Assembly: GCA_030821775.1 (NCBI GenBank)
Contig: GCA_030821775.1_4700.1
Source of the DNA: a phage
Length of the DNA stretch: 44,039 bases
Direction: 5' to 3' (one strand)
Position numbers and translations under genes: made by a program. The notes under the pieces were generated by a model. It was not told the DNA's origin. It made no database searches and worked only from the letters and a program-made list of their open reading frames with translations. Within the stretch, counting starts at the first letter, position 1. Each line of letters starts with the position of its first letter. Positions 24,602 through 40,205 of the stretch are shown piece by piece.

Positions 24602-26314
24602 CTACTTTGCAACCCAACCTTGAGCAGATGTACCAGATTCTTTAATGTACAATGTACTACCACCAGACCCATTAATACCAGTTGCCAAAGAACCGACAGG
24701 TGCACCTACACCTAAAGTTGTAGGATTGCCATTTAGTCCATAAACAATCACCGTACTAGAACCGACTCCTTGGTTATTCTGAGGTGCTTGCGTACCATAG
24801 CAATCATTGCCAATTAGTTTAATATTGGAGCAAGAAGAAGTAACACAAATACCAAGGCTTGGCTTGTTAGGGCTTTCTCCATCTACTCCAATATTACCTT
24901 CTACTAGGATGTTGTTAGCTCCTGTGTCTATACTAATGAAGTGTCTACCTGCTTCAGCGGTAGATACTTCCTTCATATTATTAGCTTTAATCACTAGACC
25001 GCTAGCCTTGCAGTTTACATGAATACCATATTGCCCTAATTTAGAGAAGATATTACGACTAAGTATACCTTCTCCTGATAAACCAGTACCAATGAATGTA
25101 GTAGCATCAGACTCACCTAACCAAATCCCACTACCTCTTCCGTTTTCCCAAGTATTACCTTCGATGTGGTATTTTGTCCCAAAGCGTAAACCGATTAACC
25201 CTAAGCCACCAGAGCCTGTATTACCTTTTACAATTAAATTCTTACACCACCTTGCATCTACACCATAGGATACATCCCCTGTGAGGATCATAGTATTATT
25301 AGAAATTTCAATATGGTCATGCCAAATGTCACTAATATCGGTAAAAGGCCAAGATGGTGCATCAATTAGCACTGGTGCTCTTACGCCATCAAAAGTACAA
25401 CCTACAACACTACCTTGTCGAGTCCCTTGCGGTTTAGTTTGAGAGGAGACAGGTGTAACATGAACGCCTCTTGCATTAGAGTTTCTAAAGGTGCAACCAC
25501 GTACTGTCCAGTTTTTCCAGTTAAATACACGTACACCTGCAAAGAGAGCACCATCTGTAGTGCAATTCAAGATACGGATATTGTTGCCCTGTACACCATA
25601 AGCTGAGGCGTGATTTCCGATTAGTGCACCATAACCTCCAAACCCGGATTCTGGGTTTGGACCAGCATAGCAATTCTCCACCAGCATACCACTAGACTGC
25701 ACATAGTGACCAACTGTAATAAGTCCTGGGTCTAACTGTATAGCCTCTGAGAAGCTACGACTGCCTGTATTCTTAAACCCTAGGAATTTACAATCACGAA
25801 TAACTACGTTGTTCCAATCTGCTAAATCTATGGCGTGGTAGTCCACTACATTGTTAACTGTTATGCCTTCAAACTTCAAATCATTATTACTAGTAGATGC
25901 AAATACTACAAAAGGTGTATCCCCTTTAGTGTGACCATTGCCTTCATAGACACCTCCACTGACTGTTACATTACTAGCTTGCCTTTGTGATAATCTGAAT
26001 AGCGTATCTCCTGTTTCGTAGTCACGTACAAATGTTACACCTTTAGCAACCTTGAAGTGTGTATTAGCAAATATCTCAACAGTACCACTGAGTTTATATT
26101 CGCCAGCTTTAGTGACTGATACAGTACCACCGCCTAGCAATCTGACCGCATTGAATGCAGCTTGAAGGGCTTGCCTGTTGTCATTAGAAGAGGGATTAAC
26201 TCCAAAATCCGCAACATCTATTGTATCCGATAGTTTATCAGATAGCAGGCGCTCAATAGTACCTGTTAGTTTACTCTTGTACTTCACCAAGTAAGCACTT
26301 AATCTTTGAAGCAT
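24602..26314 (-). CDS. Tailspike 2: beta-helix polysaccharide depolymerase
   Basis: 570-aa ORF with AAGGAGG SD; N-terminal pectate-lyase-3-like motif (DVADFGVNP...), many Gly/Asn-rich repeat turns typical of right-handed parallel beta-helix tailspikes; terminal position as in SP6/K1-5. Confidence 0.7.
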   Translation of the reverse strand: MLQRLSAYLVKYKSKLTGTIERLLSDKLSDTIDVADFGVNPSSNDNRQALQAAFNAVRLLGGGTVSVTKAGEYKLSGTVEIFANTHFKVAKGVTFVRDYETGDTLFRLSQRQASNVTVSGGVYEGNGHTKGDTPFVVFASTSNNDLKFEGITVNNVVDYHAIDLADWNNVVIRDCKFLGFKNTGSRSFSEAIQLDPGLITVGHYVQSSGMLVENCYAGPNPESGFGGYGALIGNHASAYGVQGNNIRILNCTTDGALFAGVRVFNWKNWTVRGCTFRNSNARGVHVTPVSSQTKPQGTRQGSVVGCTFDGVRAPVLIDAPSWPFTDISDIWHDHIEISNNTMILTGDVSYGVDARWCKNLIVKGNTGSGGLGLIGLRFGTKYHIEGNTWENGRGSGIWLGESDATTFIGTGLSGEGILSRNIFSKLGQYGIHVNCKASGLVIKANNMKEVSTAEAGRHFISIDTGANNILVEGNIGVDGESPNKPSLGICVTSSCSNIKLIGNDCYGTQAPQNNQGVGSSTVIVYGLNGNPTTLGVGAPVGSLATGINGSGGSTLYIKESGTSAQGWVAK

Positions 26315-26399: not shown

Positions 26400-28298
26400 T
26401 TACTTAGGCAGGGAAGCTAGTGCTTCCTGCATACGCTTAATAGTCCGCCGCATCAACGCAGCCTCTAATATCAGTACTTCCTCGTAACGAATACCGTAGC
26501 GGGAACCTGCTGGTGTAATCAGTTTACGAGAGCCATTGGCATCTTCCTCGTATACATCATCCCAACTGTCGAAGCACAAGAAGCCATAGCGATGTGCATC
26601 TATACCGTGACGTTCGAAAGCCTCCTTAGCTCGCTGAGCGATGATGCCAAAGTGCCATCTAGCTGAGTCTACACCCTTCTCCTCAATTCGGTCCAAGTAC
26701 TGAAACTGCACAAAGTCAACTTCAGACCAAGCATCCAGTAAAGCATCTGAGATAATAAGAGGCTCTGTTTTATCCCTAGCATCTGAGACAACAGTGAATG
26801 CTGATTGAGTAAAACCGCCAGACCACACTCGATCGGCGGAACCTAATGCGTATGTACCAGTACTATTTGGGGTCATTGCATTAGCACCTAACTGCAAATA
26901 GCCTTCTCTACTGGTAGAAAGACGCACGTTACCGTTGGTGAGGGACACTGTCCGATAAGTACCATCAGAAGTAAATAGGCGAACTTGAGAAGAAGTACCC
27001 CCACCTACAGCTAATGACACAGCACCGTCCCCAAGCATTCTGTACTTATCAGCAGAAGTAAGAGCGCCAGAAGGGGGTGACATGGACTTAATCCGCCATT
27101 CGAACCTACCTGACATACTACCTATGTACTGCCCTAAGGCAGGTGCGTGCACTACGTTACTATTATTAGTGCCGTCAATAGTAGCTGCACCGGCAATAGT
27201 ACTAGCAGAACTGAGAAGGTCGTTTCTCCTGCCAGGGTGCTTTACCTCTACGAAGTTACGTGTAGAGCCGGATTCGAAAGTAATAACACCTGTAGCACTG
27301 TAGCTAGGAAATACAGACGCATAGTTGTTATTAGCTGTACCTATAAAGCGTGCAATTGTAGCAGTCTGCTTTTGTCCTAAAGAGTTAGTACCATCACATC
27401 CTGACATAAGCACATTATTTATGACGTTATCAGAACCCTCTACTGTAACACCATGAGCCTGCCCAGCATCAGAAGTTGAGTAATCTACGAGCACGTCTGA
27501 GATTAAGTTCGTACTTCCTTTGCCTGCAACAACCGCTGCATACTTAGGGTTATTAGCCATCACCCCCTTGATAAGGTTATTAGAAGGAGCTATTGGCCCT
27601 TCAGTGCCGTTGTAAGTTACATGCTGACAATCTGTCCCTATAACATTACTGACTATGTTGTAACTGGCTTTACCTTTCAACTCTACTGCTCCGAACTGAG
27701 GGTAGTTCTTAGCAATGACGTTATCTATGAGGGAGTTAACTGAGGAATCAGCAAGTACGCATCCGGCTGCCTTATTAGTAGCATAGCCGGAATAGCTACC
27801 TCGAATGCCTTTAATCATAAGTCCATCCGGTGGCGCACCATTAGGGTATGCGATTAAACTGAAACCAATACCTTTAACGTCTGAGAAGTTAACGTCACTT
27901 ACAGTAACATCACTTCCACCAGCAAGGGATACCTGCTGTCCCTGAGTTGTATCAGTCGCCTTATTACTTTCTACCGTAATATTACTTAAGCGACCTGCAC
28001 GTAGATTGTTAAATACTAGGTAGTTACCTGTACTTGAACGGTGACTTAGCACGCCACTACCCCTGCCGTCTAAGTTACAGTAATTACTATTAATACCAGA
28101 GCTAGAGAATACACCATCTGAGACTGTGACAGCTTTCTGAGAGTTTAATGAAGCAGCTATAACCTCCGTATCATCAGTAGTGGCGTCACCTGCAGCACCA
28201 AACGGCTTTGATGTTAAAACTCTCGCATCAAGGTACTCATACAAAGATTGTCCTTTATGCAAGATTCCTTCAGTATTAGGTTTGGTTAATTTAGCCAT
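26400..28298 (-). CDS. Tailspike 1: depolymerase with C-terminal intramolecular chaperone domain
   Basis: Track ORF 26400..28358 begins at TTG; the ATG at 28298 (MAKLTKP...) has an AGGAGA SD. N-terminal FGAAGDATTDDT motif, beta-helix repeats, and a C-terminal ~128-aa domain (SDARDK...GIIAQRAKEAF...) resembling the self-cleaving chaperone (peptidase S74) of endosialidase and K5 lyase tailspikes. Confidence 0.75.
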   Translation of the reverse strand: MAKLTKPNTEGILHKGQSLYEYLDARVLTSKPFGAAGDATTDDTEVIAASLNSQKAVTVSDGVFSSSGINSNYCNLDGRGSGVLSHRSSTGNYLVFNNLRAGRLSNITVESNKATDTTQGQQVSLAGGSDVTVSDVNFSDVKGIGFSLIAYPNGAPPDGLMIKGIRGSYSGYATNKAAGCVLADSSVNSLIDNVIAKNYPQFGAVELKGKASYNIVSNVIGTDCQHVTYNGTEGPIAPSNNLIKGVMANNPKYAAVVAGKGSTNLISDVLVDYSTSDAGQAHGVTVEGSDNVINNVLMSGCDGTNSLGQKQTATIARFIGTANNNYASVFPSYSATGVITFESGSTRNFVEVKHPGRRNDLLSSASTIAGAATIDGTNNSNVVHAPALGQYIGSMSGRFEWRIKSMSPPSGALTSADKYRMLGDGAVSLAVGGGTSSQVRLFTSDGTYRTVSLTNGNVRLSTSREGYLQLGANAMTPNSTGTYALGSADRVWSGGFTQSAFTVVSDARDKTEPLIISDALLDAWSEVDFVQFQYLDRIEEKGVDSARWHFGIIAQRAKEAFERHGIDAHRYGFLCFDSWDDVYEEDANGSRKLITPAGSRYGIRYEEVLILEAALMRRTIKRMQEALASLPK

Positions 28299-28382
28299 GC
28301 TATCTCCTATTACTTCCCAACCCTCCCCATGAAGATTGGCTAGTAATAGGCCGCTCAAAAGAACGGCACTATCTTATCTCTT

Positions 28383-28400
28383 CTATAGTGTCTCCTAAAT
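28383..28400 (-). promoter_or_regulatory. SP6-type phage promoter upstream of the tailspike genes
   Basis: Plus CTATAGTGTCTCCTAAAT ~85 nt upstream of the tailspike 1 start. Confidence 0.7.
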
Positions 28401-28429: not shown

Positions 28430-28615
28430 TTATTTATAACCGCGTTCTAGTGATAAAATGTACAGTCCAAGTTGTGTAGCATCAGGCTTGCTAAAGCAGA
28501 CCTTATCGTCTACTTCGTACACTGCCGTCAGCGTCGGCTTGGTTGGGCGTTCTGGTAACGCCGTCCCGCACCCGGAAGTGGTCAGCGAACCAATCAGCAG
28601 GATTGTCGCTAGCAT
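28430..28615 (-). CDS. o-spanin (Rz1-like outer-membrane lipoprotein)
   Basis: Track ORF 28430..28678; from the internal ATG the product MLATILLIGSLTTSGC... has a signal peptide with lipobox (LTTSGC) and a short Pro-rich mature part; overlaps the i-spanin-like ORF out of frame. Confidence 0.55.
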   Translation of the reverse strand: MLATILLIGSLTTSGCGTALPERPTKPTLTAVYEVDDKVCFSKPDATQLGLYILSLERGYK

Positions 28616-28712
28616 GATTCGCTTCACGTTGAGCCTCCTTCTGCTCTTGTTCTCGCTTGTAGGCAACCAGCAGGCCAAGTAGACCTGCCAGCACCTTAAG
28701 CAGCTTATTCAC
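28503..28712 (-). CDS. i-spanin-like protein (N-terminal transmembrane helix)
   Basis: 69-aa ORF with one N-terminal hydrophobic helix (LLKVLAGLLGLLVAY) then a charged region; alternative start and no SD; shorter than typical i-spanins. Confidence 0.4.
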   Translation of the reverse strand: MNKLLKVLAGLLGLLVAYKREQEQKEAQREANHASDNPADWFADHFRVRDGVTRTPNQADADGSVRSRR

Positions 28713-28968
28713 AGCCTACGGCTTGGCAGATAACACTGGTAACTGCATCGGCAGTCTGAGCACCAAACTCAACACCCATGCCAACAGAAACCAACGCCAC
28801 TACCAAACCTACCAGTGCTGCGACTACCTTCTTACTCTTTAACAGCCTCACAACCAGCCCTCGCTTTCCATTCGTTCAGAAGGTGAGTATAGTTCTGGAA
28901 GTCAGTGTAGTTTCCAGCTTCACAGGCCTCCTTTACCTTACGCTCACAGTATGCAATGCAACCCTTCA

Positions 28969-29313
28969 TTACCACCTCGCTTTGTTAGAGCGCACATCGA
29001 TGTGTGTGAAGTTCGGGTAAGCACCAATGCCGTACTTGTCTGGGTACTTGTTGCATAGGTACTCTAGCACCTTGGTAGGTGATACACCTTTCACATTAAT
29101 GTCAGCAGCAATGCCAAGCAGATGCTTGGAGTCACGAGCGCCACCAACATTTGAGTTGTGTTTAGCACAGCGATGACCAGAGGTGATAACTACAGGCGCA
29201 TCAAAATGCTCACGCACATCTGTGACTACCTGTAATAACTCAGCATCAACAGTGGATGTACCGCACCCACAACGGCAAGCAAATTCTTTACGCTTGAAGT
29301 ATTTGTTAAGCAT
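28969..29313 (-). CDS. Endolysin, peptidase M15-type (L-alanyl-D-glutamate peptidase-like)
   Basis: Track ORF to 29367 starts at TTG; the ATG at 29313 has a GAGGG SD. Zn-binding pattern SGHRCAKHN...D...H typical of M15 endolysins; no signal peptide. Confidence 0.65.
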   Translation of the reverse strand: MLNKYFKRKEFACRCGCGTSTVDAELLQVVTDVREHFDAPVVITSGHRCAKHNSNVGGARDSKHLLGIAADINVKGVSPTKVLEYLCNKYPDKYGIGAYPNFTHIDVRSNKARW

Positions 29314-29315
29314 TA

Positions 29316-29600
29316 TTAGCCCTCTGCTGGAGTGACAGGTGACTCCACCATAGTAGTTGCATACCAAGGGTCAGTTGGTTCACTACCATGTGCAATAGCG
29401 ATGTACAAGGTGTTTGCTTTCTCTACAGCAACCATGGCACCTTTCTGCTTACCAGATAGGTGTTTAATGTTGATAGGATGATTTTTCTTCTGAAGGTCTT
29501 CTTCAGCAACAACAGGCATGGGGATTGCCGTTGCAATAGTTTGTACTGCCTTTACTCGAAAAGCCTGACCAGTAACAGAACCTGTACCATATGTAGCCAT
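29316..29600 (-). CDS. Small protein, paralog B of a tandem pair
   Basis: 94-aa ORF with GGAGG SD; shares the block SGKQKGAMV...IAIA with the adjacent ORF 29616..29891. Confidence 0.55.
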   Translation of the reverse strand: MATYGTGSVTGQAFRVKAVQTIATAIPMPVVAEEDLQKKNHPINIKHLSGKQKGAMVAVEKANTLYIAIAHGSEPTDPWYATTMVESPVTPAEG

Positions 29601-29615
29601 GTAATCCTCCTCTTC

Positions 29616-29891
29616 TTAAGCTAGGGTAATAGAAGTGCCCGCTGTAACGGACAGCCAATTAGAATCTTCTTTGCCATCAACTGCAATAGCAATACTTAAT
29701 ACACCAGATGAGTCAAGACACACCATAGCTCCTTTCTGTTTGCCTGATTTGGTGGCATCATTAATAACATTGCTTTTCTTACTAGCTTCCTCTTTTGAGA
29801 TTACCGGAAGCATTAGTGCTTCACTTACAGGTTGTAACTGCTTACGACCAGACTTACCTGTAATGGGTTTACTACTATAACTATCAGCCAT
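29616..29891 (-). CDS. Small protein, paralog A of a tandem pair
   Basis: Track ORF 29616..29951 trimmed to the ATG at 29891 (AGGAGAG SD), giving 91 aa MADSYSS...; homologous to the adjacent 94-aa ORF. Confidence 0.55.
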   Translation of the reverse strand: MADSYSSKPITGKSGRKQLQPVSEALMLPVISKEEASKKSNVINDATKSGKQKGAMVCLDSSGVLSIAIAVDGKEDSNWLSVTAGTSITLA

Positions 29892-30031
29892 TATCTCTCC
29901 TATTATGTAAATATAGTAAGGAATGAAGGAATAGGGTGTACAGGAGTACACCCATACTAAGGCATACCTAGATATAACCTAGGTTAACCTATATTATCCT
30001 TGTTATTTCTCTTATTCTCTGTGCCCTCCTC

Positions 30032-30049
30032 CTATAGTGTCCCCTAATT
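30032..30049 (-). promoter_or_regulatory. SP6-type phage promoter (variant) at the 3' end of the large terminase gene
   Basis: Plus CTATAGTGTCCCCTAATT overlapping the terminase stop codon. Confidence 0.6.
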
Positions 30050-31946
30050 ACCAAGTCCTTGATATTCTTGAAGAAAGAGTATTTCGAGACTTGACCTGCA
30101 TCGTGGGTGCATTTCCGTAGACACGGCGCTGCATTGCCACTGACGTATTCACCTGTTTTCGATAACCGTGGTCTTGTCCTGTGAAGAACTCACGGCGACG
30201 GCGAGGGTCATGCATCATCTCAAGATAATCGCGCATCTCCTGCGCTCTGAGGCGATTTATCCGGTTAACCTCGTCATAGTCTATCTGAGAAGTTAATTGC
30301 CGTATAGCGCCGTACAGTGCGTCTAAGCGGTCATCATGTCGCAGGCACCCTTTCTCCAGAGTGATGTTCGAGATTTGAGCAAACAGGCTGTAGCTCATCC
30401 GAACCTCCAGAGGGTAGTGCTGGATGCTGTCAATGTCCTGCTTGATCATCTCAGCGTTGAAGATGATGCGGTGCGCGGAGAACAGCGGTTCAAGCGTCTC
30501 GATGATACGAACCTCTTTCTGACCGTGTGCGTAGTCTTCTTTCAACTCGGCAGGCCACTCACGTTCGAAGTATGGCTTAATTACCGCCTCAAACGCACCG
30601 TGACCGAAGTTCTTCTCTATGAAGACCTCTTTTACCCCTGCGGCCTTAGCCTCGCGCACAATGCGACTGAGCGCGTTCTCGGAGTATCCGCCAGGCACAC
30701 CGAAGCATTTATAGACGTAGATGAACGTCCCCAACAGGAATACGATAGCCACGCCAGTTTCGTCGCCGTTCTTACCGCCACCAGCGGGGTCAATGTACAT
30801 GACGCGGCGCTGGATTGGTCGCCACTCATACGGGCGTGCAACCGGACGGTACAGGTAGTCTGTAGGCTTGTTACCGAAGCGCGGAGCGTCACCAATCAAG
30901 TTGAGAGTGTCGTTGCTCCAAGTCGGCATCTCTGGGACAACATCTGTACCAAAGCTCATGCAGATAAGCTGGTTCAGGCGCAGGGGGTAACGGTCTGCGT
31001 CCATCAGGCGCGTGTTCAGCATGAACTGTAGCTGGAACTTAGCAGTACCTTGTGAGATTTCCTTCTCAATCAGCTTCTCGTCATCGTACATTTCAGGGCA
31101 AGTTGGAGCGCCCTGAGTCCCGTCGATGCCATAACCTGAGCGCAGTGACGGGTCTTCCATCATATCTTGGCGAATCATCGGTGCGAGGAAGTCGCCGTAG
31201 CAAGCCTCCTGCTCTAACGTTGGATACCGTCCGGGCCAGATTCGAATCTGATAGCCACGCGCTGGTAAGTTGTTGTAGATGGAGTTCACGCTCTGAGGCG
31301 TACCAAGGTAGATGATGTCACCGAACTGGTTGATTGATTCAAACTCTTTGGTCAGGTCTTCCAGCAAGGCACGGCCTGCTGCGGTACGGCTGTTCTGCAA
31401 CGATTCAACGTCATCAGCCAAGATGATGTCTGCACGAGCACCCTGCATACCCGCCTCGATAGAGTAGCAGGCCACGGACGGAGACTTGTCACTACCACGT
31501 AATGTGTAGTGAATCTCAAAGCCTTTGATTGAAGCCTTGTCACCTGCGTAGATGTCAGGCAACATGAACTCCAAGAAGTCCAGACCACGGAAGATTTTGA
31601 TAACCCAGCCTGCGATTTCCTCTGCACGCTTGGCTGTCTGCGACACAATCATGATACGCTTGTGTGGTTCATGGATGATACGAAATACAGAGTAGATTGC
31701 AGCGATTGTGGTCTTAGCCTGTCCACGCTGTGCCTCTACCATTCGATATTTGTTCCCACTGAATAGGAACTTTAAGATATCCGCTTGTACCCGATTCAAA
31801 TCAGGGTTGCCAGTGATTAATGTATTGATTACAACCTGAGCGAATGACAGAAGTCCCTGCACGGTATACGGGAATGTTTGTTGTAACTCGTGCAGCAACT
31901 CCCAACGGGCAAGGGCTTCTGCCTGAGATTCCCTTGCTTTTGCCAT
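30048..31946 (-). CDS. Terminase large subunit
   Basis: 632-aa ORF with AAGGAGG SD; start overlaps the small-subunit stop (TAATG); ATPase and nuclease-sized domains; position as T7 gp19. Confidence 0.85.
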   Translation of the reverse strand: MAKARESQAEALARWELLHELQQTFPYTVQGLLSFAQVVINTLITGNPDLNRVQADILKFLFSGNKYRMVEAQRGQAKTTIAAIYSVFRIIHEPHKRIMIVSQTAKRAEEIAGWVIKIFRGLDFLEFMLPDIYAGDKASIKGFEIHYTLRGSDKSPSVACYSIEAGMQGARADIILADDVESLQNSRTAAGRALLEDLTKEFESINQFGDIIYLGTPQSVNSIYNNLPARGYQIRIWPGRYPTLEQEACYGDFLAPMIRQDMMEDPSLRSGYGIDGTQGAPTCPEMYDDEKLIEKEISQGTAKFQLQFMLNTRLMDADRYPLRLNQLICMSFGTDVVPEMPTWSNDTLNLIGDAPRFGNKPTDYLYRPVARPYEWRPIQRRVMYIDPAGGGKNGDETGVAIVFLLGTFIYVYKCFGVPGGYSENALSRIVREAKAAGVKEVFIEKNFGHGAFEAVIKPYFEREWPAELKEDYAHGQKEVRIIETLEPLFSAHRIIFNAEMIKQDIDSIQHYPLEVRMSYSLFAQISNITLEKGCLRHDDRLDALYGAIRQLTSQIDYDEVNRINRLRAQEMRDYLEMMHDPRRRREFFTGQDHGYRKQVNTSVAMQRRVYGNAPTMQVKSRNTLSSRISRTW

Positions 31947-32245
31947 TAAGCCTCCTTAGCGAAAGCGATAACCTTACCTTGTGAAGCCTGTTTCAACTGA
32001 GCCAGACGCTTAGACAGCTTGGATTCCTCCTGTTGTGCTGCTGGCGTAGCGGTGATGCCGTTATCCAGCACCCACTTACACATCGCACCAACATCCTTAC
32101 CGGACACTAGGCCGATTGTCGCATCAGGGTTATCTTCGATTGCATCTAAGATAGCCTGTGCTTTCTTGTTGAACATCTTCGTAATTGCATTGTGTAGAAT
32201 ACCTACATCATCTTCCGATGCAGCATGTCTGTTATGATTGCTCAC
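31946..32245 (-). CDS. Terminase small subunit (T7 gp18-like)
   Basis: 99-aa ORF, GTG start with GGAGG SD, immediately upstream of and coupled to the large subunit. Confidence 0.6.
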   Translation of the reverse strand: MSNHNRHAASEDDVGILHNAITKMFNKKAQAILDAIEDNPDATIGLVSGKDVGAMCKWVLDNGITATPAAQQEESKLSKRLAQLKQASQGKVIAFAKEA

Positions 32246-32423
32246 GTCTCTTCCTCCGTGCCTTAATCTTTCCCCACACCCAGTCGCAAATCTGTAACAT
32301 AGTCCAGATAGCAGTTAGAATGTAAACCCAGTTCTCCCAACTGACTCCAAGAAAGGTTGAGCTTGTCACTAAGACACTCGGAACCCACTTAAGGCCATCG
32401 GTGATTGCATCTGAGTTTACCAT
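32232..32423 (-). CDS. Holin (T7 gp17.5-like)
   Basis: Track ORF to 32483; the ATG at 32423 has an AAGGAGG SD and gives a 63-aa protein with hydrophobic segments and a highly basic C-terminus (KIKARRKRREQS); sits between tail fiber and small terminase as in T7. Confidence 0.55.
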   Translation of the reverse strand: MVNSDAITDGLKWVPSVLVTSSTFLGVSWENWVYILTAIWTMLQICDWVWGKIKARRKRREQS

Positions 32424-37259: not shown

Positions 37260-40205
37260 CTAATTGATCTTCACTCGCCCAATCTTAGTGTTTGCAGCGA
37301 GTTTGCCAGCGGCAGGCGGGTATACCTGCATCCAGCCGTTCTTGTCGATCTTGTTGAAATGAGACTTACTGACGAATGCCTCGGACATTTCACCAGCGAA
37401 CTTAACGTACATAGAGCCATCTGCACGAGTTTCTACTTCGCTAATCTTAGGAACAGCTCCACCACTCTGTGCTAGGTTGTAGGCTTCTGCACGACGAACC
37501 AATAGGCCAGTTTGACGCTTACCTTCGGAAGATGCAGTGGCTAGCATTTCAATAAACCCATCAGTAAACCGACCAGCCTTGAACGCTTCATATGCACGAG
37601 GTGACTTCTGGATGCCACCTCTACCAAGGTTGTAGCTTAAATCCATGATACCACGCTGTACACCGGGATGCATTTTGTCAAAAGGCACAGCCCAATCACG
37701 AGTAGAAGGTACATGGCTCTTCATGTCCTGCTTGAGAAGTTTCATAGCTCGCTCTGGTGTCAGTTGAGACTGACCAGCTTTGAACGGAACTTTCTCTGAA
37801 CCAATCATGATGTAGCCATTACGCTTCTCTTCGGCAGTCAGGAAGTGACCATATCCAACCGAATGACCATGTGCATCTTTGTACGGTGTGTACACGCCAG
37901 CAACTCGATCAAAGCCAACGTTCATCTGGTTCTCTGTCTTGGCTACATAGTCGAAGAATGTCTGGTTCTTCTTCTCGTAGCCGAACTCAAAGTTAGCAGG
38001 TAGGTTCTCACCAGCAGCAAAGGCAGGAGACATAAGGAAGTCAGCAATACCACGCTTGCCTACTGTCTTAGCAGTAACGTCACCTTTCTGCATAGGCTGC
38101 GCTTGGTAGCCACCAGCACCCCACATGCGCATCTGCTGTGCTTCAAAGTTCTTCTTAGCATCATCACGCTCTTTCACTTTAGCGTCGTAATGTTCCTTGA
38201 GCAACGCTTGTCCTTTAATTTCAGACAGTGGCATTGCTGGAGTGAGAGGCGTTCTGGCAGAACCCCCACGGATTGTGAACATACCACGCTTAGAATCAAC
38301 ATCAATGTAGATGTCAGATTCATCTAAACCTCCTGAATTATCAAGCAATTCCTGCTTGTGGTTATCGATGTACTGACGTAATGCTGTAGGTACATCATTC
38401 TGGTTTACACCTATAGTGTCACCTAAACCACGAGCATCACCTTTGACCAACACACCTTGAGTGAAGAAACCTTCGGAAAGCTGCGTATACTGAGATGTCA
38501 GATAGGATTGCAAGTGACGCTTGATGGTGTCATTGTTGTGACCTGCAATCTTCATCGCACGGGCGATAGTCATTGCATCATCCATCACAAGTGCTTTACC
38601 AGTGTCGCTCATGTTATCTCCAAGAGTTAACCAGCTACCACCAGCAATATCATCAACCACACCCTCAACATCACTGGACAATTCTTTGAGAACTGAGCCT
38701 TGCAACTTCTCACCTTTTGCAACGTTCTGAGCAAACTCAATCGCCTGACCCACGTTGTATCCCATCTGTAACGCCTTGTCGTAGTTCTCCACAAAGGCGT
38801 ACTCCTTGTCGCCCATCACTGCACGGCGGGAGTCTTCTGGAATAGAGTCACGCGCCATCATGATTGTCTTGAGCGCCTCCGGCTCTGCTGTCATATCCTT
38901 AAGGTTAGCAGAAGACATTTGCATCAGTGAGTCGTAACGAGCCTTGATGTTCGGGTCTTTGATGAGTTGCTGCCCCAGCTTGGCATATCGCATGATTTCG
39001 TACTTACCACGGATAGCCTCTGCCGCCTCTCCGGTTGCTCCGGTTCGTGCAATCTCATCGTTTGCCAGCTTGGTGAACACACCAGCGATACCTTCTGCAT
39101 AGTCGTTACGGTCTTTCTCACTAATGTCTTGCAAGCCAAGAGGTGAACCAGATTGACCGCGTGCAAGCAGGTCTTGCATCTTGGCTTCCTCTGCGTTCTT
39201 CTTAGCTACCTTGTCGAACAGTGATTTGATTTCACCGTCAGACCAAGCAGTGCCTCCAGAGATTTGGTTGTGATTCTGCATGATTTGCAGCATCTCTTCT
39301 CGGTCAAGCTCTCCAGCTTCGAATGCCTGAATCGCTGCATCCTTCTTCTCGAAGAGTGCAACCTGATTCTGAGCAGCCCAGTTACGGTTAGCTTGAATCT
39401 CGGCAGTCTGTAGCTTGCCATTCCGCTGGTACAGGGACACACCGTTCTTGTCTTTCAGAGACTTCGTTGCTTCAACAAAGGTGTCATCACCAACAGCAGC
39501 ACGCTCCATAGCAATCTGAGCAATCATCTCTTCATACTCAGGCTTGGTAAGCTGCATGGTGATAGCTTCCTGCTGTAGCTGGTGTAATGCGTCATCAAGA
39601 GCACCACCAGACAGACCTTCTGTAACCATCAGGACACGAGACTGCATAGCCTGTGTGCGCTCTTGTGCTTCACGTTCCAGCTTGGCGCTCATACGGGCAG
39701 CGAAGATTTTAGGTTGCTGCTCCATGAATGCGTTAGACACAGTACGCATGGTTTCTTTGTCCCCGATAAGTCCGGGGTACTGCTGGTATACTTTCTCCTG
39801 AATCTGGTTGCGGGAGTTAACAACCATTTGCTCCCACTCTTGGTCTGTGCCAGTGAAGCGCTTTGCTGCATCCTGTAATGCGATAGATTGTCCTATCACG
39901 TCGTTCTGCAACTGCACCAGCATATGTGCACGAGCGCCACCAACAGTGGCATCATCGGACGGCATCAGACCCTGCAAGGCTCGGTCATATTGACGAACCT
40001 TGTCATCCTCTACCGCCTGATTCATGATTTCCGTGCCTACCTTGGCGAATGCACCAGCGGCGCTAAACAGGTCATCAAGGAATGCGGAGCCTGTACGCTC
40101 CAGCACTGGCTCGCTTACCTGAATAGCGGAGGTGGAAGCACCACGCGGTGCTCCCTTAGATTGTACTTGCTGCAAGCCTTGCACTGCTTGCCGTTCAATT
40201 GCCAT
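37260..40205 (-). CDS. Internal virion protein with C-terminal T4-lysozyme-like domain (gp15-like position)
   Basis: 981-aa ORF with AAGGAG SD; C-terminal region contains YKDAHGHSVGYGHFLT, closely resembling the T4 lysozyme block YKDTEGYYTIGIGHLLT. Confidence 0.75.
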   Translation of the reverse strand: MAIERQAVQGLQQVQSKGAPRGASTSAIQVSEPVLERTGSAFLDDLFSAAGAFAKVGTEIMNQAVEDDKVRQYDRALQGLMPSDDATVGGARAHMLVQLQNDVIGQSIALQDAAKRFTGTDQEWEQMVVNSRNQIQEKVYQQYPGLIGDKETMRTVSNAFMEQQPKIFAARMSAKLEREAQERTQAMQSRVLMVTEGLSGGALDDALHQLQQEAITMQLTKPEYEEMIAQIAMERAAVGDDTFVEATKSLKDKNGVSLYQRNGKLQTAEIQANRNWAAQNQVALFEKKDAAIQAFEAGELDREEMLQIMQNHNQISGGTAWSDGEIKSLFDKVAKKNAEEAKMQDLLARGQSGSPLGLQDISEKDRNDYAEGIAGVFTKLANDEIARTGATGEAAEAIRGKYEIMRYAKLGQQLIKDPNIKARYDSLMQMSSANLKDMTAEPEALKTIMMARDSIPEDSRRAVMGDKEYAFVENYDKALQMGYNVGQAIEFAQNVAKGEKLQGSVLKELSSDVEGVVDDIAGGSWLTLGDNMSDTGKALVMDDAMTIARAMKIAGHNNDTIKRHLQSYLTSQYTQLSEGFFTQGVLVKGDARGLGDTIGVNQNDVPTALRQYIDNHKQELLDNSGGLDESDIYIDVDSKRGMFTIRGGSARTPLTPAMPLSEIKGQALLKEHYDAKVKERDDAKKNFEAQQMRMWGAGGYQAQPMQKGDVTAKTVGKRGIADFLMSPAFAAGENLPANFEFGYEKKNQTFFDYVAKTENQMNVGFDRVAGVYTPYKDAHGHSVGYGHFLTAEEKRNGYIMIGSEKVPFKAGQSQLTPERAMKLLKQDMKSHVPSTRDWAVPFDKMHPGVQRGIMDLSYNLGRGGIQKSPRAYEAFKAGRFTDGFIEMLATASSEGKRQTGLLVRRAEAYNLAQSGGAVPKISEVETRADGSMYVKFAGEMSEAFVSKSHFNKIDKNGWMQVYPPAAGKLAANTKIGRVKIN
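38412..38429 (-). promoter_or_regulatory. SP6-type promoter-like sequence inside the gp15-like gene
   Basis: Plus CTATAGTGTCACCTAAAC, one mismatch at the upstream end, within the coding sequence. Confidence 0.5.

What the first reader, a model, noticed from the sequence alone, without database searches (positions are those of the whole stretch)
28430..32423. Split lysis system: holin next to the terminase genes, endolysin and overlapping spanins 3 kb away
The holin candidate (32232..32423) sits between tail fiber and small terminase, as T7 gp17.5 does. The M15 peptidase endolysin and an embedded spanin pair (o-spanin lipoprotein reading frame overlapping a short i-spanin-like ORF) lie beyond the terminase and paralog pair. 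The i-spanin-like ORF is unusually short (69 aa) and uses a non-ATG start, so the spanin call is the weakest part. A Cys-rich 44-aa ORF (~28835..28969) is coupled to the endolysin stop.
Basis: partly seen in the sequence, partly recalled or inferred. Interest (0 to 1): 0.35.

Follow-up and report, generated by a model that had tools for sequence, protein, structure and literature searches.

The report
SP6-type phage lysis genes, mini-spanin pair
This stretch holds the ordinary host-lysis genes of an SP6-like Salmonella phage (a T7-type holin, a zinc-peptidase endolysin and an unusually small overlapping spanin pair); near-identical relatives already have them catalogued, but public annotation disagrees on which small gene is the inner-membrane spanin.

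Summary
The window is an SP6-like podophage (91% identical to Salmonella phage SE29, 88% to UAB_Phi78), with its genes on the minus strand.

- **Holin:** 32423→32232 encodes a 63-aa member of the T7 holin family (Pfam PF10746). It lies between the tail-fibre and small-terminase genes, as in T7.
- **Lysis cassette:** about 3 kb downstream, behind its own SP6-type promoter (30049–30029), lie five genes:
  - an M15_3 zinc-peptidase endolysin;
  - a 45-aa Cys protein;
  - a 69-aa GTG-start ORF;
  - a 65-aa lipoprotein, in the +1 frame.
- **Architecture:** the pair is "overlapped" (125 nt shared), not "embedded".

The weakest call, the 69-aa ORF, is a real gene. Its dN/dS is 0.28 in the non-overlapped part. 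It carries a conserved DPxxWFxDHF motif and belongs to a family of 319 clusters. It always lies upstream of the lipoprotein gene and overlaps it in all but Vibrio phage X29, where the two are separated. It occurs in cassettes with four unrelated endolysin types.

Kongari et al. 2018 already list this pair as the spanin of UAB_Phi78. They list the 49-aa protein as i-spanin in K1-5, K1E and SP6. All these phages have both genes, so the catalogue is inconsistent. Nothing has been tested experimentally.

Verdict: already known; modest interest.

The parts
32232..32423 (-). Holin, 63 aa, T7 gp17.5 family (class II type). It sits between the tail-fibre/adaptor gene and the small terminase.
   Evidence: Pfam PF10746, 2.2e-13, 50.1 bits against a cut-off of 25.4. 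phrog_920 holin, 1.6e-19. 31% identity over 35 aa to T7 gp17.5. AAGGAGG Shine-Dalgarno upstream. Same gene order in T7.
31946..32245 (-). Small terminase subunit (context gene). Its GTG start overlaps the holin end by 14 nt.
   Evidence: ORF list. Annotated as small terminase in UAB_Phi78, SE29 and LL11.
30048..31946 (-). Large terminase subunit (context gene). It separates the holin from the lysis cassette.
   Evidence: ORF list. Annotations of relatives.
30029..30049 (-). SP6-type phage promoter (AATTAGGGGACACTATAGGAG) heading the transcription unit that carries the paralog pair, endolysin and spanins.
   Evidence: One of 12 matches to the SP6 promoter consensus, all on the minus strand, with 0 expected by chance.
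28969..29313 (-). Endolysin, 114 aa. Peptidase_M15_3 zinc peptidase, soluble, with no signal or SAR sequence.
   Evidence: PF08291, 2.3e-33. phrog_894 endolysin, 2e-43. The SxHxxGxAxD and THID metal-ligand motifs are readable in the sequence. The local match to the Zn D-Ala-D-Ala carboxypeptidase 1LBU covers the SxHxxGxAxD motif only. No hydrophobic segment.
28832..28969 (-). 45-aa soluble protein with a CxxxC motif, of unknown function. Its ATG shares a base with the endolysin stop.
   Evidence: Sequence. phrog_1312, unknown function, 2.4e-13. Homologues present in SP6, K1E, K1-5, Klebsiella and Proteus phages.
28705..28851 (-). 48-aa single-TMD protein (N-in, about 20 residues outside with two Cys), in the 'holin slot' of the cassette. 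Annotators have called it either holin or i-spanin.
   Evidence: Strong TMD, KD19 2.65. phrog_4712 'holin', 1.8e-15. Called i-spanin in LL11 and Premi and in Kongari 2018 for K1-5, K1E and SP6. In distant relatives this slot holds holin-like 1- or 2-TMD proteins.
28503..28712 (-). 69-aa i-spanin candidate. Its GTG start overlaps the stop of the 48-aa gene by 8 nt. It has an N-terminal 15-residue hydrophobic anchor, a charged helix, a DNPADWFADHF motif and a variable acidic tail.
   Evidence: dN/dS of 0.28 in its frame against 1.5 and 2.4 in the other frames. Open in every locus where the lipoprotein ORF was found. Motif conserved. 319 clusters in the profile search. phrog_9219. Catalogued as the overlapped i-spanin of UAB_Phi78. 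AF2 fusion with the o-spanin gave pTM 0.51.
28430..28627 (-). o-spanin, 65-aa outer-membrane lipoprotein precursor (mature form 46 aa). Its GTG start follows AGAAGGAGG. It is in the +1 frame relative to the 69-aa ORF and shares 125 nt with it.
   Evidence: Lipobox LTTSG|C, Cys20, K/R in the first 7 residues, Gly at +2. phrog_8971 'Rz-like spanin', 5e-34. Annotated as Rz-like spanin in UAB_Phi78 and SE29. C-terminal YILSLERGY motif conserved.
28380..28400 (-). SP6-type promoter (ATTTAGGAGACACTATAGAAG). It marks the downstream end of the lysis cassette and the start of the tailspike unit.
   Evidence: One mismatch to the SP6 consensus. Sequence read.

Best explanation
This is the standard lysis equipment of the SP6 group of T7-like phages, spread over two late transcription units.

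1. A T7-family holin (63 aa) is made with the structural and packaging genes. It is inferred to permeabilise the inner membrane.
2. A separate SP6-promoter-driven cassette supplies a soluble zinc-peptidase endolysin (Peptidase_M15_3), which needs a hole to reach the wall. The cassette also encodes a 45-aa protein of unknown role and a 48-aa single-TMD holin-like protein.
3. The last two genes form a minimal two-component spanin.
   - The 69-aa i-spanin is translated from a GTG by coupling to the stop of the 48-aa gene. It is anchored N-in by a 15-residue hydrophobic helix, and its charged helix and WFxDHF motif lie in the periplasm.
   - The 65-aa o-spanin is read in the +1 frame from its own strong ribosome-binding site. 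It is lipidated at Cys20 and sorted to the outer membrane.
   - The WFxDHF region is inferred to bind the conserved C-terminal hairpin-plus-helix of the lipoprotein. After the wall is degraded the two membranes are joined and the outer membrane is disrupted.

What is shown here: the homologies, the lipobox, the reading-frame selection and the conserved gene context. What is inferred: membrane topology, the i/o contact, and all lysis functions.
For: - **Identity of the phage and synteny:**
- **Holin:** PF10746 above cut-off and homology to T7 gp17.5.
- **Endolysin:** PF08291 at 115 bits, with no hydrophobic segment.
- **o-spanin:** PROSITE-type lipobox met with the GTG start. The start position is ATG in SP6 and GRNsp51, and an AGGAGG Shine-Dalgarno is conserved in all loci. 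It matches phrog_8971.
- **The 69-aa ORF is a real gene:**
  - It is open in every locus where the lipoprotein ORF was found, and its start always overlaps the upstream stop.
  - Its start is ATG in distant relatives.
  - Pooled dN/dS is 0.28 against 1.5 and 2.4 in the alternative frames. Third-position diversity is highest. The other frames carry stops in 16 and 28 of 29 genomes.
  - In the shared DNA the i frame is better conserved (BLOSUM 2.32 vs 1.15 per residue). The Gly in the signal peptide tracks the Trp codon of the i frame.
  - The profile search finds 319 clusters, nearly all 60-90 aa.
  - In Vibrio phage X29 the gene stands alone, separated from the lipoprotein gene.
- **Lysis context:** the pair follows endolysins of four unrelated families (M15_3, GH108, Phage_lysozyme, and an amidase annotated as PF01520 in X29) plus a small TM protein.
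- **Anchor:** on the same scale its hydrophobicity (KD15 2.17) is at least that of the T7 gp18.5 TMD (1.72).
- **AF2 fusion:** the i+o fusion gives pTM 0.51, with the o-spanin domain at pLDDT 91-92. The 48-aa+o fusion gives pTM 0.31 and pLDDT 61-78.
- **Prior cataloguing:** Kongari 2018 lists exactly this ORF pair as the overlapped spanin of UAB_Phi78. The annotators of Pantoea phage Nufs112 call the pair Rz-like and Rz1-like.
Against: - No experiment exists for any SP6-group spanin. The M15 endolysin is 'suggested ... without biochemical evidence' (PMC4837284).
- The i-spanin has only about 51 residues beyond its anchor, and the mature o-spanin has 46. That is far shorter than lambda or T7 spanins. 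Kongari's tables report no predicted coiled coil and flag the K1-5 pair as 'too short'. A rough length estimate (my inference) gives about 10 nm, less than the width of the periplasm.
- The anchor is only 15 hydrophobic residues and fails a classical 19-residue Kyte-Doolittle threshold. In about 16% of family representatives the N-terminal helix looks amphipathic rather than membrane-spanning.
- The GTG has no Shine-Dalgarno of its own. Its conservation is partly forced by the Cys-Glu-stop codons of the upstream gene.
- The i-like protein has no periplasmic cysteine.
- The AF2 evidence is indirect, because no coordinates or contacts were available.
- The profile shows no sequence relationship to T7 gp18.5.
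Confidence: 0.7

Rival explanations
1. The 48-aa single-TMD protein (28851→28705) is the i-spanin. It forms a 'separated' pair with the lipoprotein, and the 69-aa GTG ORF does something else.
For: Kongari 2018 lists the homologous 49-aa gp44 as i-spanin of K1-5, K1E and SP6. Center for Phage Technology annotations of LL11 and Premi do the same. The protein has a strong N-in/C-out TMD and two conserved periplasmic cysteines.
Against: - Only about 20 residues lie outside the membrane. [quoted passage not shown]
- The family is not coupled to the lipoprotein. In distant relatives the lipoprotein and the WFxDHF protein persist, while this slot holds unrelated 1- or 2-TMD holin-like proteins.
- It matches holin PHROGs.
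- The AF2 fusion with the o-spanin is poor: pTM 0.31 against 0.51 for the 69-aa ORF.
- The same catalogue uses the 69-aa ORF for UAB_Phi78, which has both genes.
Confidence: 0.1
2. The system is not really split. The 48-aa protein next to the endolysin is the working holin (or a second holin or antiholin), and the T7-type protein by the terminase is auxiliary.
For: The gene sits exactly where holins sit in related cassettes: endolysin, then a small TM protein, then i-like/o. It hits phrog_4712 'holin'. A 2-TMD protein in that slot hits both phrog_34682 and phrog_4712. RefSeq labels the SP6, K1E-group and Proteus homologues 'holin'.
Against: PHROG and RefSeq 'holin' labels are untested. The T7-family holin is conserved in all the relatives examined and has a curated Pfam match. 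A 48-aa one-TMD protein is very small for a canonical large-hole holin, which a soluble endolysin needs (inference).
Confidence: 0.15
3. The lipoprotein is not a spanin but a superinfection-exclusion or receptor-masking lipoprotein (like T5 Llp or Cor). It sits next to the tailspike genes, and the 69-aa protein is unrelated to outer-membrane disruption.
For: The gene lies immediately upstream of the tailspike genes. The pair is too short for a textbook periplasm-spanning complex (inference). The only NCBIfam hit is a weak one to a periplasmic immunity lipoprotein model, well below cut-off.
Against: In unrelated phages the pair travels with endolysins and holin-like genes, not with receptor-binding genes. 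Overlapping a membrane-anchored partner gene in the +1 frame is the hallmark arrangement of Rz/Rz1 pairs (Kongari 2018). The cassette is driven by a late promoter.
Confidence: 0.04

Closest known systems
Overlapped two-component spanin of Salmonella phage UAB_Phi78 (Kongari et al. 2018, BMC Bioinformatics 19:326, Tables 3/4, S1, S3, S4)
   Same: It is the same gene pair. The i-spanin is 69 aa and 97% identical, and the o-spanin is 97% identical. Both are in the +1 arrangement, with the same position after the M15 endolysin. DNA identity over the cassette is 95.5%.
   Different: The catalogue uses the ATG start (61 aa, 110-bp overlap). The evidence here favours the upstream GTG (65 aa, 125-bp overlap). 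The catalogue entry is computational only, and it treats UAB_Phi78 as a singleton i-spanin family. The family is in fact large.
T7 lysis genes 17.5 (holin) and 18.5/18.7 (embedded spanins)
   Same: The holin is homologous and in the same slot between the tail-fibre and small-terminase genes. The spanin logic is the same: a membrane-anchored protein plus a lipoprotein read from another frame of the same DNA.
   Different: - T7 spanins lie between the two terminase genes and are embedded. Here they follow the large terminase and are overlapped.
- T7 gp18.5 is 143 aa. The i-spanin here is 69 aa and unrelated in sequence.
- The T7 endolysin is the gp3.5 amidase located elsewhere in the genome. Here it is an M15 peptidase.
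'Separated' spanin call for K1-5, K1E and SP6 (gp44 + gp45) in the same catalogue and in LL11/Premi annotations
   Same: The o-spanin is in the same family. The 49-aa gp44 is the homologue of the window's 48-aa ORF.
   Different: Those genomes also contain the 72-73-aa GTG ORF, so the difference in architecture is a difference of annotation, not of biology. The evidence here favours the GTG ORF as partner.
Lysis cassette of SP6-like phage KBNP1315/ECBP5 (Lee et al. 2015, PLoS One 10:e0142504)
   Same: That paper describes the same 'separated position' of holin, endolysin, Rz and Rz1 in the SP6-like gene order. The ECBP5 lipoprotein belongs to the same o-spanin family.
   Different: KBNP1315 has a secreted or SAR-type endolysin and a proposed pinholin. 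The window's endolysin has no export signal.
Vibrio phage X29 lysis region
   Same: It has the same WFxDHF-type small protein and the same YILxLERGY lipoprotein, downstream of an endolysin and a small TM protein.
   Different: The two genes are separated by an opposite-strand gene. The i-like protein is 58 aa and ends just after the motif, which shows that the long acidic tail in the window is dispensable.

Membership tests
Two-component spanin (Rz/Rz1 type) | The o-spanin is an outer-membrane lipoprotein: signal peptide, lipobox Cys, no Asp at +2. | tested here: met
   MKRIMLATILLIGSLTTSG|CGT. A PROSITE PS51257-type rule is satisfied (Cys20, K/R in the first 7 residues). The +2 residue is Gly. 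The lipobox is conserved in all 38 distinct homologues.
Two-component spanin (Rz/Rz1 type) | The i-spanin is an integral inner-membrane protein with one N-terminal TMD, N-in/C-out. | tested here: inconclusive
   There is a 15-residue hydrophobic stretch (LLKVLAGLLGLLVAY) with KD15 2.17 and KD19 1.22. The bona fide T7 gp18.5 TMD scores 1.72 and 1.35 on the same scale. Across the family the median KD15 is 1.7, and 23 of 146 representatives fall below 1.2. TMHMM, DeepTMHMM and topology reporters were not available.
Two-component spanin (Rz/Rz1 type) | The o-spanin gene is embedded in, overlapping or adjacent to the i-spanin gene. | tested here: met
   The o start lies inside the i ORF, in the +1 frame, with 125 nt shared, and o ends 73 nt beyond i. 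The same geometry is found in 45 of 47 related loci. The genes are separated in X29.
Two-component spanin (Rz/Rz1 type) | Located in or next to the lysis cassette. | tested here: met
   The pair lies directly downstream of the endolysin and a holin-like gene, here and in relatives with four different endolysin families.
Two-component spanin (Rz/Rz1 type) | The periplasmic domains together are long enough, and the i-spanin helical or coiled-coil, so as to bridge the periplasm. | tested here: not met
   About 51 + 46 periplasmic residues. AF2 predicts only one helix reaching residue 36. Kongari's tables report no coiled coil and 16.7% helix for the UAB_Phi78 i-spanin, and flag K1-5 as 'too short'. 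This is a typical rather than a strictly defining feature.
Two-component spanin (Rz/Rz1 type) | At least one periplasmic cysteine in the complex (intermolecular disulfides). | tested here: met
   The mature o-spanin keeps a conserved second Cys (DDKVCFSKPD, nearly invariant). The i-like protein has none.
Two-component spanin (Rz/Rz1 type) | The i- and o-subunits bind each other. | tested here: inconclusive
   The AF2 single-chain fusion with a paired alignment gives pTM 0.51 and o-domain pLDDT 91-92. The fusion to the 48-aa protein gives 0.31 and 61-78. No coordinates or contacts could be inspected.
Two-component spanin (Rz/Rz1 type) | Required for outer-membrane disruption (spherical-cell arrest in Mg2+ when absent). 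| not testable with these tools
   A genetic experiment is needed. No published test for the SP6 group was found.
Embedded spanin architecture (lambda, T7) | The o-spanin gene lies entirely within the i-spanin gene. | tested here: not met
   The o stop (28430) lies 73 nt beyond the i stop (28503).
Unimolecular spanin (T1 gp11 type) | An N-terminal lipoprotein signal plus a C-terminal TMD in one chain. | tested here: not met
   The C-terminus is ...QLGLYILSLERGYK. The only hydrophobic window is the signal peptide.
T7 holin family (Pfam PF10746, Phage_holin_2_2) | Profile match above the curated cut-off. | tested here: met
   50.1 bits against a cut-off of 25.4, covering profile positions 2-56 of 61. 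The pairwise match to T7 gp17.5 has E = 9e-6.
T7 holin family (Pfam PF10746, Phage_holin_2_2) | Small membrane protein with a highly charged C-terminus, located between the tail-fibre and small-terminase genes. | tested here: met
   63 aa, with a hydrophobic core at residues 32-50 and a C-terminus of KIKARRKRREQS. Synteny with T7.
T7 holin family (Pfam PF10746, Phage_holin_2_2) | Forms lethal membrane lesions that release endolysin. | not testable with these tools
   Requires expression or complementation assays.
Peptidase_M15_3 endolysin | Full-length profile match and zinc-ligand motifs (H-x6-D ... H). | tested here: met
   PF08291 at 115 bits over profile positions 1-108 of 108. SKHLLGIAAD and THID are readable in the sequence. 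The former aligns to the Zn D-Ala-D-Ala carboxypeptidase 1LBU.
Peptidase_M15_3 endolysin | Cleaves host peptidoglycan. | not testable with these tools
   The UAB_Phi78 genome paper states the assignment is 'without biochemical evidence'.

The most novel reading that the evidence does not exclude
The WFxDHF protein and YILxLERGY lipoprotein form a widespread class of 'mini-spanins', with about 50 + 46 periplasmic residues. They would be too short to pre-assemble across an intact periplasm, so the two halves could meet only after the endolysin has removed the wall and the membranes come together. In the SP6 group the 48-aa two-cysteine membrane protein, translationally coupled to the i-subunit, might be a third partner or a cassette-resident holin.
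Probability: 0.25. Interest if true: 0.5.

Novelty: already known. Interest (0 to 1): 0.22.

Why it matters
SP6/K1E-type phages are used in Salmonella biocontrol and in E. coli K1 therapy work, yet their spanin genes are annotated inconsistently.

- The same ORF is called hypothetical, 'o-spanin', 'Rz-like' or is left uncalled.
- The 48-aa neighbour is called both 'holin' and 'i-spanin'.

A consistent call (69-aa GTG ORF as i-spanin, GTG-start lipoprotein as o-spanin, 48-aa protein as a holin-slot protein) would improve annotation of some hundred or more sequenced phages: 110 phage records matched this cassette. It would also reconcile two conflicting entries in the reference spanin catalogue.

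The pair is also among the shortest two-component spanins proposed. That makes it a compact test case for whether spanins must bridge the periplasm before the wall is degraded.

Tried and rejected
- **The GTG ORF as an accidental open frame inside or upstream of the lipoprotein gene.** Rejected on dN/dS, codon-position diversity, stops in the other frames, ATG starts in distant relatives, and the stand-alone copy in Vibrio phage X29. A synonymous-recoding simulation of the lipoprotein gene gave only modest per-lineage support (P = 0.015-0.33), so it is not used as main evidence.
- **The classical Kyte-Doolittle 19-residue threshold for TMDs.** Uninformative. The validated T7 holin and the T7 gp18.5 TMD also fail it.
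- **tblastn of two distant i-like proteins against GenBank phages.** No match. The lipoprotein query worked instead.
- **Profile-profile comparison of the i-like family with T7 gp18.5.** No relationship, probability 0.2%.
- **Pfam and NCBIfam scans of the four small proteins.** Nothing above cut-off.
- **Foldseek of the fusion model against the PDB.** No hit.
- **The lipoprotein as a unimolecular spanin.** Rejected, because it has no C-terminal TMD.
- **Literature search.** No experimental study of SP6-group spanins was found.

Full report
**What the window is.** The region 28300-32600 matches 150 phage records. The best are Salmonella phage SE29 (91% identity) and UAB_Phi78 (88%), both Zindervirus in the SP6 group. 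K1-5, K1E, Klebsiella and Proteus relatives match at 75-80%. All genes discussed here are on the minus strand. Twelve matches to the SP6 RNA-polymerase promoter consensus lie on that strand, with none expected by chance.

**Checking the observation.**
- The holin candidate runs from ATG 32423 to stop 32232 (63 aa). It has an AAGGAGG ribosome-binding site 5 nt upstream, directly after the tail-fibre/adaptor stop. It overlaps the small-terminase GTG by 14 nt.
- The endolysin runs 29313→28969 (114 aa).
- The Cys ORF starts at an ATG that shares one base with the endolysin stop (TAATG). It is 45 aa.
- The i-spanin-like ORF starts at GTG 28712 and ends at 28503 (69 aa).
- The lipoprotein ORF ends at 28430.

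Three corrections are needed.
1. The lipoprotein gene starts inside the 69-aa ORF but ends 73 nt beyond it. The architecture is therefore 'overlapped', not 'embedded'.
2. The lipoprotein most likely starts at GTG 28627, 6 nt after AGAAGGAGG. This site is conserved in all relatives and is an ATG in SP6 and GRNsp51. Only this start puts K/R in the first seven residues.
3. A conserved 48-aa ORF (GTG 28851→28705) with a strong transmembrane segment lies between the Cys ORF and the 69-aa ORF.

**Holin and endolysin.**
- The 63-aa protein matches Pfam PF10746, the T7 holin family, at 50.1 bits (cut-off 25.4). It also matches phrog_920 'holin'. It aligns with T7 gp17.5 at 31% identity over 35 residues.
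- The T7 record shows the order: tail fibre 17, holin 17.5, small terminase 18, spanins 18.5/18.7, large terminase 19.
- The 114-aa protein is a full-length Peptidase_M15_3 (115 bits). The SxHxxGxAxD and THID metal-ligand motifs are readable in the sequence. The first aligns to the zinc D-Ala-D-Ala carboxypeptidase 1LBU.
- The protein has no hydrophobic N-terminus, so it should need a membrane lesion to reach the wall.
- The UAB_Phi78 genome paper notes that this endolysin assignment is 'without biochemical evidence' (PMC4837284).

**The lipoprotein.** With the GTG start the precursor is MKRIMLATILLIGSLTTSG|CGT... It satisfies a PROSITE-type lipobox rule and has Gly, not Asp, at +2. It matches phrog_8971 'Rz-like spanin' at 5e-34, and is annotated that way in UAB_Phi78 and SE29. 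Its C-terminal half (VCFSKPDATxLGLYILSLERGY) is the most conserved part.

- *Open frame.* I collected 43 related loci from GenBank phages and IMG/VR. In all 42 where the lipoprotein ORF was found (the script found none in L026), an ORF of 61-85 aa is open in the frame one base upstream of the lipoprotein frame. Its start codon overlaps the stop of the preceding small membrane-protein gene, by 8 nt in SP6-likes and 4 nt in distant ones. The start is ATG in several distant relatives.
- *Selection in the non-overlapped part.* Codons 4-28 overlap no other gene. There, pooled dN/dS over 29 genomes is 0.28 in this frame, against 1.5 and 2.4 in the other two frames. Diversity is highest at third positions. 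The other frames contain stops in 16 and 28 of 29 genomes.
- *Conserved motif.* The protein alignment shows an N-terminal hydrophobic helix, a KKxEQKEAQ charged segment and a D-P-x-x-W-F-x-D-H-F motif, followed by a variable acidic tail.
- *Selection in the shared DNA.* The motif is encoded by the same DNA as the lipoprotein's signal peptide. There the i frame is better conserved (BLOSUM62 2.32 vs 1.15 per residue). The otherwise odd invariant Gly of the signal peptide is explained by the Trp codon of the i frame, and it is absent where the i frame has Tyr.
- *Family size.* A profile search of 1.8 billion representatives finds 319 clusters at E ≤ 1e-3, nearly all 60-90 aa.
- *Context.* Three randomly chosen distant members sit downstream of endolysins of three unrelated families (M15_3, GH108 + PG_binding_3, Phage_lysozyme). 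Each follows a small TM protein and carries an overlapping +1 lipoprotein gene with the same C-terminal motif.
- *A stand-alone copy.* In Vibrio phage X29, whose endolysin is an amidase of a fourth type, the i-like gene (58 aa, ending right after the HF motif) is separated from the lipoprotein gene by an opposite-strand gene. It is therefore an autonomous gene, and the long tail is a by-product of the overlap.

**Which protein partners the lipoprotein?** Public annotation is contradictory.
- Kongari et al. 2018 list UAB_Phi78 as an overlapped spanin with a 69-aa i-spanin (coordinates 39883-40090) and a 61-aa o-spanin. This is exactly the window's pair.
- The same catalogue lists K1-5, K1E and SP6 as 'separated', with the 49-aa gp44 as i-spanin. 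[quoted passage not shown]
- LL11 and Premi follow the second scheme.
- RefSeq and PHROG call the 49-aa protein 'holin'.
- SP6's GTG-frame product is even named 'o-spanin' in one source.
- Pantoea phage Nufs112 annotates the pair as Rz-like and Rz1-like.

All these genomes contain both candidates, so the difference lies in annotation, not biology. Four lines of evidence favour the GTG ORF.
1. It co-occurs with the lipoprotein across the whole family. The 48-aa family does not; its slot holds other holin-like proteins in distant relatives.
2. The 48-aa protein and its slot-mates hit holin PHROGs.
3. An AlphaFold2 single-chain fusion of the 69-aa protein, a 30-residue linker and the mature lipoprotein, run with a paired alignment, gave pTM 0.51. 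The lipoprotein domain reached pLDDT 91-92, and residues 1-55 of the i-like protein reached 78-91. The equivalent fusion with the 48-aa protein, using the same lipoprotein rows, gave pTM 0.31 and pLDDT 61-78.
4. The hydrophobic anchor of the 69-aa protein scores as high as the T7 gp18.5 TMD on the same scale.

**Mechanism proposed.** The homologies, signals, frame selection and gene contexts are shown here. The rest is inferred.
- The T7-type holin is transcribed with the structural and packaging genes.
- The endolysin cassette has its own SP6-type promoter at 30049-30029.
- The 69-aa protein has no ribosome-binding site of its own. It is probably translated by coupling to termination of the 48-aa gene.
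- The lipoprotein has a strong site of its own inside the i gene.
- After the holin lets the soluble peptidase reach the wall, the inner-membrane-anchored WFxDHF protein and the outer-membrane lipoprotein would join and disrupt the outer membrane.

**What does not fit the textbook.**
- The two periplasmic parts are about 51 and 46 residues. AF2 predicts a single helix to residue 36, and the catalogue reports no coiled coil. My rough estimate of reach is about 10 nm, shorter than the periplasm. The halves may therefore meet only after the wall is gone.
- In 23 of 146 family representatives the N-terminal helix is weakly hydrophobic.
- The i-like protein has no cysteine.
- None of this has been tested experimentally in any SP6-group phage.

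**Comparison and novelty.**
- The separated placement of holin, endolysin and Rz/Rz1 in SP6-like genomes was described for KBNP1315 in 2015.
- The spanin pair of the 95.5%-identical UAB_Phi78 cassette was catalogued in 2018.
- Holin, endolysin and 'Rz-like spanin' are routine RefSeq labels.

The finding is therefore already known.
- a reconciliation of the conflicting i-spanin assignments;
- evidence that the small i-like protein defines a large family tied to one lipoprotein family;
- the overlooked holin-slot gene, which makes the system less 'split' than it looks.

Noticed in passing
window 1312-38428, minus strand (12 sites: 1312, 6857, 10421, 11700, 12163, 16131, 18267, 18430, 22165, 28380, 30029, 38408): Twelve SP6-RNA-polymerase-type promoters (ATTTAGGTGACACTATAGAAG, 0-3 mismatches), all on the minus strand, with none expected by chance. 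They define the phage's transcription units.
   Followed up: partly
window 29934-29953, minus strand: A G+C-rich 8-bp stem-loop (GGGTGTACTCCTGTACACCC) lies about 75 nt downstream of the promoter at 30049-30029, at the 5' end of the endolysin-cassette transcript. It overlaps the mechanical GTG start of the first paralog ORF. It may be an RNA-processing or stabilising hairpin rather than a terminator.
   Followed up: no
window 29616-29891 and 29316-29600, minus strand: Two paralogous 91- and 94-aa proteins lie between the terminase and the endolysin. Relatives label them 'acetyl-CoA acetyltransferase' (phrog_2725). They have no Pfam match and are far too small for a thiolase. The name looks like a misannotation propagated from K1E gp42.
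   Followed up: partly
window 28832-28969, minus strand: The 45-aa protein coupled to the endolysin stop is conserved across SP6-like, Klebsiella and Proteus phages (CxxWCE...GNYxDWxNY...W, phrog_1312, unknown function). Only the first CxxxC is conserved, so 'Cys-rich' is not a family trait. It is unannotated in K1-5, K1E and LL11.
   Followed up: partly
L002 (Salmonella phage SE29) 2153-4797: In the closest relative the large-terminase gene is split by an inserted 177-aa ORF. PST_H2 and Klebsiella relatives have a homing endonuclease annotated at this place. The window's terminase gene is intact.
   Followed up: no
P0023 (SP6) and L005 853-1071: One public source names the SP6 product of the i-spanin-like frame 'o-spanin'. 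The true lipoprotein frame of SP6 (L005 938-1147) is not annotated in NC_004831.
   Followed up: partly
window 26400-28358, minus strand; L006 1269-1664: The N-terminus of the first tailspike ORF (MSGLLLANLHGEGWEVIG...MAKLTKPNTEG) is shared with the small K1E gp46. This suggests a common adaptor-binding module ahead of exchangeable tailspike bodies. A second tailspike gene follows at 24602-26314.
   Followed up: no
L051 (Vibrio phage X29) 536-1701; L037, L043, L045: Some distant cassettes carry, in the holin slot, a 50-91-aa single-TMD protein with a TPxxKDD motif (phrog_9685, 'unknown function'). By position it is a candidate holin family.
   Followed up: no
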